A stretch of 64,000 nt of DNA, taken from the NCBI GenBank assembly GCA_964016885.1, contig OZ024740.1:410068001-410132000 (forward strand), in the 5' to 3' direction. Both the position numbers and the translations under genes were made by a program. The notes under the pieces were generated by a model. It did not search any database. It worked only from the letters and a program-made list of their open reading frames with translations, and was not told the DNA's origin. This DNA is from Eledone cirrhosa. Its lineage: Eukaryota. Shown one piece after another: positions 4,881 to 11,414 of this stretch (its first letter is position 1; every line of letters starts with the position of its first letter).

Positions 4881-5320
4881 ACATTTAAGTAAGTGCCGTA
4901 CTAAGAGTGAGAAAAGAAATTTCGTTTCATTCTATTCCATTTATATATATATATATATATATATATATATATTTCATAAAACATCTCTGATTATTTAATT
5001 TATTAATTCTTCATTGAGCCACAAAGTGACCCGTTGCAAAACACATATATTTATGACTCTATATATATATGTAAACCTTTATATATATATATATATATAT
5101 ATATATATATATATATATATATATATATATATATATATATATATATATATATGTATATATATATATGTATATATATATGAAAAGTGTAATTTACTACACA
5201 AAACGAAGGTTATAGAGAAAATTGAGGTTGGTAATGGCACATGGAATATATAAGAGACAGAATACTTTTTTGGAAAAAACATATAATTTTATAAGGTAAG
5301 GAAATAATAAAGGGTATAAA

Positions 5321-5366
5321 AAATGACCGGTTTCGATGGGTCTGCAAAAGCCATCTTTTCAAATGT
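5321..5366 (-). ncRNA. Minimal type I hammerhead ribozyme motif (U3-A8 variant)
   Basis: Reverse complement ACAT-TTGAAAA-GATGG..CCATC-GAAAC-CG-GTC-ATTT; identical to 10926-10970. Confidence 0.65.
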
Positions 5367-5739
5367 TGATTAATATTAAGAAAAATTAATAATAAGAAGA
5401 GTTAAAATTTGAGATTTGAAAATTCAAGTATAAAATTCATTGTGGGATTTCATAGTAGTTTTCATCTTGGTAGCCGCAAGTTGACTGCTGTGTGCCTTTC
5501 TGGTAGTGAATGAGAAGTTATTTGGGGGTGTGGGTTATTTTATAAAGGTCAGATTTAGCAATGGCCAGATGGCCAGCTGCTGGTCAGTGAGGGGGTGGAA
5601 GCAATATACATACATATATCTATCTCCCTGTGGTCGGTAGGAGAGGGGAGATTGATAGAAAGGGATTTAGTGCTCTTACACCTATATATACACACATACC
5701 TTCATCCACACATACATATACATATACATACACACATAT

Positions 5740-8385
5740 ATTGATTGCACCATCAAAATCTGACCTGGGTAAACTTAGCAAAAACATTCTAGACAGGGTG
5801 ATACAGCAAATTAAGAACTTGAATTGTTTACCTAACTTAAGCTTGTGGAAGGGAACTGGAGAGGTTATTGAGTGGTTTAAAGAAATTAAATATAACAATA
5901 ATAATAAATTTATTCAACTAGATATTGCTAACTACTATTCATCTATTACCCCTAACCTACTAAATAAGGCACTAAATTATGCATTCAAACATACAGACCT
6001 AACTAGCAATGAAATGCACATTATACTATCGGCAAGGAAAACATTGATAGAATTTAATAACCAACTATGGACTAGGGCAGATAGAGATAGCAATTTTGAC
6101 ATTACTATGGGATCATCTGACTCAGCTCAGGTAACAGACCTTGTGGGCCTATTTATAATTAATTCGCTGCATAGGAAAATACCCGGTGCTACCGGAGGAT
6201 TATATCGAGATGACATGCTTTTACTTATTGAAAATAATAACTCTGAACTAAATAGAAAAAGAAAACAAATTATACAATTTTTAATTACCTTAATCTAAAA
6301 ATAGAAATTGAGAATAACCATAGAATAGTCAATTTCCTAGATGTAACATTAAATCTCAACACATGTCTTCACTATCCATTTCACAAGTTAAATGAAAACT
6401 TGAATTATGTCAACTTTAACTCCAACCACCCCAGATCTGTTAAAAATACTATAGTGAACTCTGTTCAAAAACGTATCTCTAGAATCTCATCTAATAAAAA
6501 TATTTTCGACCAAAAAGCCCAGTATTACAATGAAGCGTTAGCTAGAGCAGGATATAGTGATAAAATTATGTACATCGATAATAATAGACAAACTAACCAA
6601 AATAACAACAATTTTAATTACGGTAACAACTTTAACAACTATAATAGAAAGAATTACAATAATTCCAAAAACCAGAAAAGAAATAGAACTAGAAACATAA
6701 TTTGGTTTGCCCCCCCCCACCCCCCTTTCTCACTAAACATTAAAACCCACATCGCTAAGATATTTTTTAATGCTCTTGACAAACGATTCCCTAGAACACA
6801 TAAGTATCACTCAATTTTCAATAGACATACTATAAAATTAACCTACTCGTCCACCAAAAATTTAGCACAAAATATTAATAGAATAAATAATAGGAATCTA
6901 AAACCTAGCCAAAATACCAATAATAGCATAAACAATATTCAAGTAAACAACTGTAACTGAACTGTAGAGATAGATCTAAATGCCCGTTAAATAACAATTG
7001 CTTAGTTAAAAATATAATATACAACTGTAATGTTAAAACTGACTTAAATTCTTTTAATTATGTTGGTTCCACCTCGACAGAATTTAAACTTCGCTATAAT
7101 AATCACAAGTATTCTTTCACGGATCCAAACAAAAAATCTTCAACATCACTATCAGGCTTACTCTGGCAACTTAAACATGATAACGTTGGATATTCGATGG
7201 TTTGGAATATAGTCTCAAGAGGGATTCCTTTTAACTCCTCCTCTGAGACATGTGACCTCTGCGCGGAGGAGATATTCTTTATACTAAAATCTAAAAATTC
7301 CCTTAATTTACGGACCAATTTATTCAGTTGCTGCAGACATAGATTGAACTCAACTTTTAAATATAAATATAAATTTAAAATGTAGTATATTTACTTAAGA
7401 CTTTTAATTATTTTAGAAAACTTGGCGATAAATCTTTCGATTCCTTCAATTCTTTAAACCTTCTTCATGAGTATATAATTAATAATGTAATTAAACTACC
7501 TTAAAATGGTGATGCTCCCAATCTATTGAATAACATTTTTAAGCTAGATAAACTTCTATAATAAATATAAGAGCATCTGGGTATCCTAAAGTTTTTTTGA
7601 AAGATTTCTGCTAAATAAGTTTGGTGAATAATTTTGGTTTTGTTTGCTTTTGATTCTGATTGCTTCTAATGAACCTGGCAATATATTGTCAAATAAATTG
7701 GAAGGATTGATTGATATGCGGGACACACTGTGTTTTATTACGGCCCTAGATATTCTGGGGAGTGAAATATTCTTGGCGTTTTTAATATTTTAATATATTG
7801 ATATCTGTTCTATTCTATGCTTGAACGATAATCATGTAAGAGAGGGCAAGAATATTATTATTATTAATAATGTATATTTTATGTATATATATATATGTAT
7901 GTACATATATGTATGGTAAAATCTTTTTTAACGCAATGAAGATTTTCATGTGAAATAAAAATTTACAGAGCTGATCACGTAAACTCACATGTGTCTATAA
8001 TGTCAATTCGAGATAACCTTCTCTTTTTCTTTCTCTTTTTTTTTTTTTTTCTTTTTCTTTTTTCTTTTTTCTCCGTCTTTCTTTCTAACTGTCCTTAACA
8101 TTTTCACTACCATAACAACTTTTTAAATGGAAGTTGTAAAATTGTTTAAGGTATGTCAAATTTATTTATAAAACTGTTTATATATTGTATTTTGTCTGAA
8201 GAGGGCATACCATATTTTTAATATGATATCCCTGAAATATATATAATGAAATAAATATGGTTTTATAAGTGTAGTTTCCATTTGTTTAATATCGTAAAAT
8301 ACTCCAAAATCTGTTGAGTGCTTTTATATCAGTTATAAAATATTTACTCGTTGTAACCCAACAATTTTAAATAAAACTTTTGCAT
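5740..8385 (+). mobile_element. Penelope-like element 'Z' (Naiad-like RT + C-terminal GIY-YIG), 5'-truncated, frameshifted
   Basis: KSDLGKLSK, DIANYYSSI, TMGSSDSA, GLYRDD, FLDVTL, RNIIWF.PP, IFNRHTIKL; CNC...CP..C, NIIY...YVGST..FKLRYNNH, CDLC..E...CRH; coding ~5740-7385; inserted in (TA)n. Confidence 0.9.
8190..8250 (+). ncRNA. Hammerhead motif in 3' pLTR of PLE Z
   Basis: TTTGT-CTGAAGA-GGG..CATAT loop ATATG..CCCT-GAAA-TATATA-TA-ATGAA, then AATAAA; weak stem I. Confidence 0.6.
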
Positions 8386-9296: not shown

Positions 9297-9980
9297 CTAT
9301 TGGGGTGATAACCCGTTTAGTTTTGGTTTAAATTTGTTAAGGAATAGATTTTCTTTGTTTATTCTTTGTTGCTGTGTGAACGAATCTGAGCACTTGTAGA
9401 AGGGGAAGATTTTAAAGTTGGGTAGTGTCATTCCTGCGCAGTTCGCAATATGACTGCTCAAGGGGATTTTTCTTGTGTTAGCGTCCCGGATTTGTTGGCG
9501 GTGGATGGTCATTCTTTTGCGTAATGAGGTGCCCGTCTGTCCTATGTAGTTGTGTTTGCACCCACCGCAAGTTATTGCGTAAATCAAGTTCTCCGAGTTG
9601 CAGGTGAAATTGTTTTTTACTGTAAATGTTTGGCCATCTTTAAATGTAAATTTTTGTCCTTCAGTGAGGTAGAGGCACGTTCTACCACATTTGGTAACTG
9701 TAGGGTTGAGGATTGGTTTGGGTATATTTGGTCCAGTGAGAATGCGTTTTAGTGATTTGGGTTGTCTTTTACTTTTAAGGATCTTCTGTGTTTCAAGAAT
9801 AGACTTCATTTTTACATCTTTAAGTAGGATGGGGAGGTTTTTGTGTAGGTCATCAAACATTTCGGTATTTCTGGGGTTGAAAGTGGATACATATGGCAGG
9901 GTGTTGAGTGTGGTTTTCTGTTTTGGATTGTTAAGTTGATGGGGATATAGGTGTTTTGCCCTGTCTATTCCATTGTTGAT
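9297..9980 (-). CDS. PLE C-terminal fragment: linker + GIY-YIG endonuclease (Neptune-like)
   Basis: [65 protein letters not shown]. Confidence 0.9.
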
Positions 9981-10925
9981 TATTTCTGTGTGTGGGTGTA
10001 TGTATGTGTATATGTGTGTGTGTGTATGTGTGTGCATGTGGATGTATGTATTGTGTGTGCGTGTGTGTGTGTGCGTGTGTGTGTGTGTGTGTGTGTGTGT
10101 GTGTGTGTGTGTGTATGTATGTGTGTATCTGGATGTATGCGTATGTGTATATATATATATGTGTGTGTGTGTGTATATATATGTGTGTGTATGTGTATAT
10201 ATATGTGTGTGTGTGTGTGTGTTTGTATGTGTGTATGTGTATATATATGTGTGTGTGTATATGTATGTGTGGGTGTGTGTATATATATGTGTATGTATAT
10301 GTGTGTATATATGTGTATGTACACATATATATATATGTGTGTGTGTGTGTGTGTATGTATGTGTATATCTGGATGTATGTGTATGTATATATATATATAT
10401 GTGTGTGTGTGTATATATATATATGTGTGTGTATGTGCATATATGTGTGTGTGTATGTATATGTATGTGTGTGTGTATGTATGTGTGTATATGTATATAT
10501 ATATATATATATATATATATATATATATATATATATATATATATATATATATATGTGTGTGTATGTATATGTATATGTATGTATGTGTGGATGAAGGTAT
10601 GTGTGTATATATAGGTGTAAGTGCACTAAATCCCTTTCTATCAATCTCCCCTCTCCTACCGACCACAGGAAGATATATGTATGTATATTGCTTCCACCCC
10701 CTCACTGACCAGCAGCTGGCCATCTGGCCATTGCTAAATCTGACCTTTATAAAATAACCCACACCCCCAAATAGCTTCTCATTCACTACCAGAAAGGCAC
10801 ACAGCAGTCAACTTGTTGCTACCAAGATGAAAACTACTATGAAATCCCACAATGAATTTTATACTTGAATTTTCAAATCTCAAATTTTAACTCTTCTTAT
10901 TATTAATTTTTCTTAATATTAATCA

Positions 10926-10970
10926 ACATTTGAAAAGATGGCTTTTGCAGACCCATCGAAACCGGTCATT
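10926..10970 (+). ncRNA. Minimal type I hammerhead ribozyme motif (U3-A8 variant) in inverted pLTR
   Basis: TTGAAAA core, stem II GATGG/CCATC, GAAA, palindromic ACCGGT stem III, GTC triplet. Confidence 0.65.
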
Positions 10971-11414
10971 TTTTATACCCTTTATTATTTCCTTACCTTA
11001 TAAAATTATATGTTTTTTCACAAAAAAGTATTCTGTCTCTTATATATTCCATGTGCCATTACCAACCTCAATTTTCTCTCTCTCTCTCTCTCTCTCTCTC
11101 TCTCTCTCTCTCTCTCTCTCTCTCTCTCTCTCTCTCTCTCTCTCTCTCTCTCTCTCTCTCTCTCTCTCTCTATATATATATATATATACACATATATATA
11201 TATATATATATATCTGTATATATATATATATATATATAGACACACATATATATATACACACCAGTTCTTACACAAACACATATTATATATATATACACAC
11301 TCATATATATATACACTCATATATATATATATATAGTAATAATAATAAATATGAAGACTAAAATCCAAAGAGGGCTCGATAAGGATAAAACCCATAGAGT
11401 TAATATATACATAT

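What the first reader, a model, noticed from the sequence alone, without database searches (positions are those of the whole stretch)
5178..11079. Second PLE of a different clade with the same inverted microsatellite-pLTR design, plus a built-in empty-site control
Seen: the minus-strand Neptune-like GIY-YIG fragment is joined at its 5' break (~9984) to an inverted ~1.1-kb copy of its own downstream region (microsatellite block + hammerhead region). In the direct arm the two parts are split by PLE Z (5740-8385), while the inverted arm shows the uninterrupted (TA)n (~10495-10553). Inference: Z inserted later into the (TA)n of Y's UTR, so PLE UTRs carry the target used by other PLEs, giving self-propagating nests.
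Basis: partly seen in the sequence, partly recalled or inferred. Interest (0 to 1): 0.72.

Follow-up and report, generated by a model that had tools for sequence, protein, structure and literature searches.

The report
Nested Penelope retroelements with stuttering end
One jumping gene sits inside a TA repeat carried by another, which is an ordinary result of both landing in TA repeats, but about 700 copies of the host element also end in a run of CT repeats that its own sequence lacks, likely written when its telomerase-related enzyme re-copies the same few RNA letters as it starts.

Summary
Y is a 5'-truncated Neptune-type Penelope-like element (PLE) with a tailed arm and an inverted tail-less arm. 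Z is a 5'-truncated Hydra-clade PLE inserted later into the (TA)n of Y's 3' UTR. Inverted arms, tails, (TA)n targeting and PLE-in-PLE nesting are all published. Y's UTR (TA)n is a real landing site: 9 of 143 other arms carry foreign inserts. But 'self-propagating nests' is not supported: the Y::Z junction is unique in the genome, no nested junction recurs, and 0 of 100 other Z ends lie in Y. The new point lies just outside the finding. Y's tail-less ends carry extra (CT)n: 690 ends have 5 or more units against 234 with 1-2, while 1,361 tailed ends keep the native two. Length is unrelated to arm divergence. The likely cause is re-copying of a CUCU template when reverse transcription starts; repair slippage or target choice remain possible, and no empty site was obtained. 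The scan already noted this PLE/(TA)n design, and a 9-base stutter in another family, elsewhere in this genome.

The parts
5060..5178 (.). (TA)n target on the tailed side of Y
5179..5213 (-). 35-bp tail of Y's direct arm; in tandem copies it is followed by ATATAT and ORF1
5214..5741 (-). Y direct arm, 3' unique part with U3-A8 hammerhead motif (core starts at 5362)
5740..8383 (+). Z: 5'-truncated Hydra-clade PLE (RT remnant 5741-6957 with a frameshift, EN 6957-7385, UTR, C3-G8 hammerhead motif at 8196, tailed end); 2-nt AT overlap at its 5' join; about 0.5-0.6 kb of UTR deleted near 8040-8055
8384..8925 (-). Y direct arm, UTR microsatellite block; 25 AT units next to Z's 3' end
8926..9296 (-). 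Y 3' UTR between stop codon and microsatellite block
9297..9983 (-). Y ORF2 remnant: end of thumb, zinc-finger linker (12 nt lost in this copy) and GIY-YIG endonuclease
9983..9986 (.). head-to-head join of the two Y arms, 2-nt GA overlap
9985..10612 (+). Y inverted arm, microsatellite block with unbroken (TA)30 at 10494-10553
10613..11079 (+). Y inverted arm, unique part with hammerhead motif (core at 10930); tail-less end
11076..11171 (+). (CT)48 at the tail-less end (2 native units, 46 extra), followed by (AT)n
   Evidence: family-wide

Best explanation
A Neptune-type PLE (Y) sits in a TA repeat as a tailed arm plus an inverted tail-less arm, a Hydra-clade PLE (Z) sits inside the TA repeat of Y's own UTR, and the CT run at Y's tail-less end was likely written by Y's reverse transcriptase re-copying a CUCU template as it started. 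Shown: the anatomy, the order (Z after Y), the (AT)n flanks of both families, nesting in about 6% of Y arms by unrelated elements, and the restriction of extra (CT)n to tail-less ends. Inferred: the endonuclease nicks both strands of a (TA)n; one nick primes at the tail end (RNA AUAUAU pairs with the target), the other 35 nt upstream (RNA CUCUAUA, whose UAUA pairs with the target); at this second site the new strand slips back two bases after each GA and adds (GA)n before it escapes into the body; the two cDNAs stop early and join head to head by microhomology. Ordinary replication slippage probably changes the run further once it passes 4-5 units. Nesting needs only a shared taste for (TA)n; nests are not copied as units. 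Odds: nest and order 0.95; no co-mobilisation 0.85; CT run made at insertion 0.85; made by the element's own RT 0.6.
For: Arms colinear across Z. Clades: Y copies have two ORFs, DKG, C-X4-C-XX-C linker and internal Cys/His motif; Z copies have one 749-aa ORF with RWR, DKT, CxCX5C, CxxC and CxH, the Hydra features of PMC8557442 section 11; the two proteins share only a weak 96-aa stretch at 24%. Exact genome-wide counts: 690 tail-less ends with 5 or more CT, 234 with 1-2 CT, 1,361 tailed ends with the native 2, 1 tailed end matching 3 units, which is a T-to-C substitution, not an expansion. In loci not chosen for CT, 24 of 39 tail-less ends have 5 or more units, range 0-35; 120 of 120 tailed ends have 2. 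In 41 pairs with 250 or more aligned bases the partner arm differs by a median 0.67% against 3.94% for other copies, so the CT run is not inherited from a CT-bearing master; CT length does not track arm divergence (rho -0.01); the 8 pairs with identical arms have 5-35 units, 7 of them picked for CT of 5 or more. Only 1 of 73 pairs shows (AG)n behind the (AT)n on the tailed side, as duplication of a compound target would give; TA-CT-TA triples away from Y occur in one locus only of 1.5 Mb, against 47 plain CT-AT compounds. Z, which has no CT at its tail-less end, runs straight into (TA)n in 20 of 20 such ends. Contigs of two other runs show (AG)n(AT)n loose ends at the same base, so it is not an artefact of this assembly. 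Two RT start sites bounding the tail and nicking of both strands were shown in vitro for a Poseidon PLE (PMC11167929).
Against: No empty allele was seen: the read tool skipped the repeats, the RAD reads were uninformative, and no clean empty site was found among fetched loci. Genomic ends cannot tell the element's RT from a host repair polymerase. About a quarter of counted tail-less ends have no extra CT (234 of 924; ends with 0, 3 or 4 units were not counted). The Poseidon study found priming without homology to the target, unlike the pairing inferred here, and PMC3846280 explains head-to-head arms by self-priming, in which case the tail-less end need not be a priming site. Gene conversion could make arms look alike and young. 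13 of 41 partners were not among the closest 5% of arms, and a few long-span pairs may be two separate insertions. The background rate at which an average (TA)n is hit was not measured, so a modest preference for Y's UTR is not excluded.
Confidence: 0.6

Rival explanations
1. The CT run is made at or soon after insertion by host machinery: slippage of a repair polymerase while the tail-less end is joined or filled in, then ordinary microsatellite growth.
For: Explains the end-specificity and age-independence equally well. Earlier scan notes favour DNA-level re-copying for larger stutters at PLE joins (e1-8819660, e1-10349181; not tested here). GA repeats are comparatively mutable once past 4-5 units (PMC3812793 passages).
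Against: Two units are below the slippage threshold and never grew in 1,361 tailed copies. The added unit is exactly the template dinucleotide next to the junction, and the tailed junction of the same insertions never gains CT.
Confidence: 0.22
2. The tail-less arm chooses pre-existing (CT)n(AT)n compound microsatellites, whose (AG)n strand pairs with CUCU in the RNA; nothing is written.
For: Such compounds are common away from Y (47 in 1.5 Mb); one of 73 pairs has (AG)n on the tailed side (L210).
Against: It needs TA-CT-TA triples or a target deletion at hundreds of sites; triples were seen in one locus only, and 72 of 73 pairs show no trace of CT on the other side. 234 ends inserted with no extra CT.
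Confidence: 0.1
3. One reading: PLE UTRs supply the targets for other PLEs so that nests propagate themselves, by preferential targeting or by copying of the nest.
For: The main (TA)n is conserved in Y (median 13 units in 124 arms); 9 of 143 other arms are hit; a second nest of the same type lies at 21261-22901 in this window. At least 947 such sites exist.
Against: Y::Z junction unique; no recurring nested junction among 10; 0 of 100 other Z ends in Y; about 2 of 2,763 Z ends are expected in Y by chance alone (rough). Inserts include tRNA-like and other short repeats without a detected hammerhead.
Confidence: 0.08

Closest known systems
Neptune-clade EN+ PLEs (as summarised in Craig et al. 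2021, PMC8557442; passages and supplement rows read)
   Same: C-terminal GIY-YIG with upstream CX2-5CxxC linker, DKG, optional ORF1, pLTR with hammerhead, inverted 5' copy, tail at one end only, microsatellite targets
   Different: Y carries a 270-700 bp compound microsatellite in its UTR and variable (CT)n at tail-less ends; neither was found in the passages read
Hydra-clade PLEs, including Hydra-1_Obim (PMC8557442 section 11 read whole; supplement rows)
   Same: Z has RWR (for RWK), DKT, CxCX5C, CxxC and CxH, no CCHH, one short ORF, hammerhead, (TA)n insertion
   Different: Z is a separate family by eye (its sequence differs throughout from the printed Hydra-1_Obim); its tail is about 87 bp; it has an asparagine-rich stretch before the endonuclease
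Pen2a_Av nested in Pen3, Adineta vaga (PMC3846280; passages read)
   Same: One PLE family inserted into another in opposite orientation; inverted pLTR, optional 31-bp tail, microhomology at 5' joins
   Different: There the insert has a 9-bp target duplication and no microsatellite target is described
Poseidon_Ac internal RT initiation (PMC11167929; main text read whole, parts 1-2 of 4)
   Same: Two fixed ends bounding the tail; both strands nicked; AT-rich targets, also in its own pLTR
   Different: Priming there is reported without homology to the target and with no repeat addition; here both ends of both families have 2-6 nt of TA homology and Y's internal end gains (CT)n
Template slippage at LINE 3' tails (eel UnaL2 TGTAA repeats; one passage of PMC3747384) and telomerase repeat addition (recalled)
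   Same: Re-copying of a short RNA template at the start of reverse transcription changes the number of terminal repeats
   Different: LINE templates already end in several repeats; Y's template is an internal two-unit CUCU, and the enzyme is of the telomerase-related PLE class

Membership tests
Neptune-clade PLE (Y) | RT followed by C-terminal GIY-YIG endonuclease | tested here: met
   RVT_1 and GIY-YIG above cut-off in family copies L124, L123 and the window
Neptune-clade PLE (Y) | CX2-5CxxC linker before the GIY-YIG core, and CCHH motif | tested here: met
   CGRTNCGTC and CGGC...H...H in L123-L128 translations; the window copy has lost NCGT
Neptune-clade PLE (Y) | Placement by RT phylogeny against reference PLEs | not tested
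   No tree built; Nematis excluded only by motif reading
EN+ PLE structure (Y, Z) | pLTR in partial tandem, inverted 5' copy, tail at one end | tested here: met
   Tandem junctions in L121-L124; 73 tailed/tail-less Y pairs; 20 tail-less Z ends
EN+ PLE structure (Y, Z) | Minimal hammerhead with palindromic helix III in the pLTR | tested here: met
   Y: U3-A8 core, 5-bp stem II, ACCGGT, identical in 174 of 215 copies; Z: C3-G8 core. U3-A8 is a known variant (PMC4209133). Rfam found none; plain folding did not give the ribozyme fold
EN+ PLE structure (Y, Z) | Self-cleavage of the hammerhead | not testable with these tools
   Needs an RNA assay
Hydra-clade PLE (Z) | RWK-like motif, DKT for DKG, CxCX5C linker, CxxC and CxH, no CCHH | tested here: met
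   RWR, DKT, CNCRDRYKC, CDLC, CRH in the 749-aa ORF of L122; Pfam finds no family in it
Hydra-clade PLE (Z) | Insertion into (TA)n | tested here: met
   27 of 29 other top copies; 2,763 ends followed by 4 or more AT, a count selected on that pattern
Self-propagating composite element (Y carrying Z) | Several copies sharing the same nested junction | tested here: not met
   1 match genome-wide; no shared junction among 9 other nests
Telomerase-like repeat addition | Repeats added by the RT itself from a short RNA template with realignment | not testable with these tools
   Genomic pattern fits; enzyme not assayed
Telomerase-like repeat addition | Repeats absent from the target before insertion | tested here: inconclusive
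   Indirect tests favour absence; no empty allele recovered

The most novel reading that the evidence does not exclude
A Penelope-class reverse transcriptase performs telomerase-like repeat addition in vivo: at the internal start site it pairs the target's TA end with UAUA, then copies the neighbouring CUCU up to about 50 times before moving on. Some 700 genomic records of this exist in one family, the element both seeds new CT microsatellites and spreads TA targets, and the tail-less end is thereby marked as a true priming site, which supports two-ended priming for inverted PLE arms.
Probability: 0.45. Interest if true: 0.78.

Novelty: new variant of a known kind. Interest (0 to 1): 0.5.

Why it matters
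The nest itself is ordinary. The CT run matters because PLE reverse transcriptases are the closest retroelement relatives of telomerase, and whether any of them can realign on a short template and add repeats is open; the in vitro PLE study read here reports no such activity. Y offers a clean internal control (the same CUCU never grows in 1,361 tailed ends) and a simple assay: protein, a short pLTR RNA and a (TA)n duplex. It would also explain part of the (CT)n(AT)n compounds of this microsatellite-rich genome and show which end of an inverted arm is primed.

Tried and rejected
Rfam at gathering thresholds: no match in the window. Free folding of the hammerhead and tail regions: z-scores -0.8 to 1.0, no support either way. 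A genome-wide count of Z ends inside Y's UTR with gapped patterns could not be had; coordinate overlap on the first 144 Mb of C1 was used; the first overlap missed two Z ends near Y copies, which were then fetched and lie beside Y, not in its UTR. Empty-site search: among fetched loci only weak candidates; the flank of L264 proved to be another repeat family; contigs of 4 runs on L288 were cut at the repeats; RAD reads and one contig set on 10900-11074 showed nothing usable beyond the end. No RNA holder listed. One search had a de-duplication fault that mismatched some tailed arms; its pair statistics were discarded and redone. Of 154 arms examined, 7 truncation or inversion joins, 2 unresolved (L016, L169) and the window's two arms were left out of the 9 of 143. 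Assembly artefact rejected. Inheritance of CT from a CT-bearing master rejected (partner arms are nearest relatives). Idea that Z shares Y's large UTR microsatellite rejected. Paper searches for PLE slippage, repeat addition or UTR-borne microsatellite targets found no such report; the library lacks most subscription papers, Repbase entries were not available, and the supplements of the bioRxiv retrozyme preprint (passages only) were not seen. PMC13282606 and PMC3124438 (passages) added nothing on this.
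Full report
Observation. The window lies at C1:410068001-410132000 of a 3.0-Gb genome. The reverse complement of 9985-11077 aligns to 5214-5739 and 8384-8925 with 512 matches to 6 mismatches and 456 to 6. The inverted arm has (TA)30 at 10494-10553; the direct arm has 3 AT units, the 2.64-kb element Z, then 25 AT units. The fragment at 9300-9983 (minus) is a GIY-YIG endonuclease. It missed that only the direct arm has a 35-bp tail and that the inverted arm ends in 48 CT units.

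What Y is. The family has about 1,400 candidate places, the best 40 at 97-99%. Longer copies show an ORF1, an ORF2 with RT and endonuclease, a DKG motif, a C-X4-C-XX-C linker and the internal Cys/His motif, the Neptune layout in PMC8557442 (passages). After the stop come 370 bp, a compound TG/TA microsatellite of about 270-700 bp in the copies printed (output partly cut), a unique part with a U3-A8 hammerhead motif that is identical in 174 of 215 copies (variant known from PMC4209133, passages), and the tail. In tandem copies the tail is followed by ATATAT and ORF1. The two arms join head to head with a 2-nt overlap.

What Z is. The family has 2,763 ends followed by at least four AT units. A natural full copy has one 749-aa ORF with RWR, DKT, CxCX5C, CxxC and CxH, the Hydra-clade signature (PMC8557442 section 11; supplement). 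Y and Z proteins share only 24% over 96 residues. The window copy starts about 640 bp into the ORF with a 2-nt AT overlap, has no inverted arm, and lacks 0.5-0.6 kb of UTR. Of the 29 other best copies 27 end in (AT)n, a few imperfect, and 2 read on into a tandem copy through ATATAT.

Nesting. Of 154 Y arms with the right flank of the main (TA)n, 135 are intact (one is the window's inverted arm), 7 end in a truncation or inversion join, 2 are unresolved, 1 is the window's Z, and 9 hold other inserts with Y sequence on both sides (L126). That is 9 of 143, or 6.3% (2.9-11.6%); two more inserts sit in minor TA runs. The 9 come from about seven families; the two families seen twice went in in opposite orientations. 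The Y::Z junction has one match in the genome. None of 29 and none of 30 fetched Z ends has Y's UTR behind it; none of the first 100 Z ends on C1 is placed as a nested copy relative to 55 Y sites, and the two within 10 kb lie beside Y. With 947 exact Y sites among roughly 1.25 million long (TA)n runs (extrapolated from 74 kb), about two Z copies are expected in Y by chance. So the UTR is a target, but there is no sign that nests are copied or favoured; a modest preference is not excluded. PLE-in-PLE nesting with inverted pLTR and tail is described in PMC3846280 (passages).

The CT run. The native sequence at the tail-less end is TTTT-CT-CT-ATA. Exact counts over the genome: 690 tail-less ends with five or more CT, 234 with one or two, 1,361 tailed ends with the native two, and one apparent exception that is a substitution. 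In loci not chosen for CT, 24 of 39 tail-less ends have five or more, and 120 of 120 tailed ends have two. In 41 pairs with long arms, the partner is far closer (median 0.67%) than other copies (3.94%), 28 of 41 being in the closest 5%, so both arms come from a template with two units and a tail. Length does not track divergence (rho -0.01), and identical arms carry 5-35 units (7 of these 8 were picked for CT). A duplicated compound target would leave (AG)n behind the (AT)n on the tailed side; this is seen in 1 of 73 pairs. An unduplicated target would have to be TA-CT-TA, seen away from Y in one locus of 1.5 Mb against 47 plain compounds. Z has no CT at its tail-less end and shows none in 20 of 20. 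Contigs of two independent runs, one matching this genome's flank exactly and one with a diverged subfamily, show (AG)n(AT)n loose ends at the same base.

Mechanism. PMC11167929 (main text) showed for a Poseidon PLE that both strands are nicked and that reverse transcription starts at two sites bounding the tail. Applied here (inference): each nick in the (TA)n primes one cDNA, one at the tail end and one at the internal site; both sites have short TA homology in the RNA; the cDNAs join head to head. At the internal site the first template bases are CUCU, and a two-base slip after each GA gives (GA)n. Later replication slippage may change the length once past 4-5 units (PMC3812793, passages). 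Template slippage is known for LINE tails (PMC3747384, one passage). Against: no empty allele was obtained; a host repair polymerase could leave the same trace; PMC3846280 favours self-priming for head-to-head arms; the Poseidon enzyme primed without homology.

Novelty. The nest is a new instance of known behaviour. End-specific repeat gain in a PLE was not found in eight paper searches, within the limits of the library. Earlier notes of this scan describe the same PLE/(TA)n design many times in this genome, and one reports an ordinary nest plus a 9-base stutter at about 29% of one end type in another family (e1-10319723; not checked here). I had the CT observation before reading these; no note matched Y's sequence. 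Verdict: new variant of a known kind; interest 0.5, resting on the CT run rather than on the nest.

Noticed in passing
window 17568-24749: A second PLE with inverted microsatellite-bearing arms (17568-19245 against 22999-24749), Hydra-like endonuclease motifs by eye, whose direct arm is split at a (TA)n by 2.5 tandem copies of a 624-bp unit (21309-22872): another nest of the same type.
   Followed up: partly
window 11411-16029: A 26-bp satellite of about 171 copies begins 240 bp beyond Y's CT run.
   Followed up: no
window 36672-36725: A 54-bp piece of a Z-related 3' end (91%) between (AT)40 and a short AT run.
   Followed up: no
window 4640-4940 and 5060-5080: Ends of other repeat families abut the TA runs left of Y; the same ends recur beside Y and Z copies elsewhere (L028, L039, L135, L193, L258), so TA runs collect several families.
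   Followed up: partly
window 28491-28639, 38280-38363; L176: (TC)n(TA)n compounds with no Y upstream; in L176 a (CT)20 follows the end of another hammerhead-bearing family, so other families may stutter too.
   Followed up: no
L195 insert: A two-armed element nested in Y carries its own U3-A8 hammerhead motif with the same ACCGGT palindrome.
   Followed up: no
L202, L299; L134, L128: A tRNA-like short repeat and a second short repeat, with no hammerhead detected, also insert into Y's TA runs.
   Followed up: partly
L201, L275: Both flanks of a Y insertion are ends of one other family facing the same (AT)n, one tailed and one tail-less.
   Followed up: no
window 8040-8055: Z's UTR lost about 0.5-0.6 kb between two T/C-rich tracts, probably by microhomology; none of the other 29 loci showed this join.
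   Followed up: partly
window 42883-45687: An uninterrupted 934-aa LINE ORF with RVT_1 and a weak zf-RVT hit.
   Followed up: no
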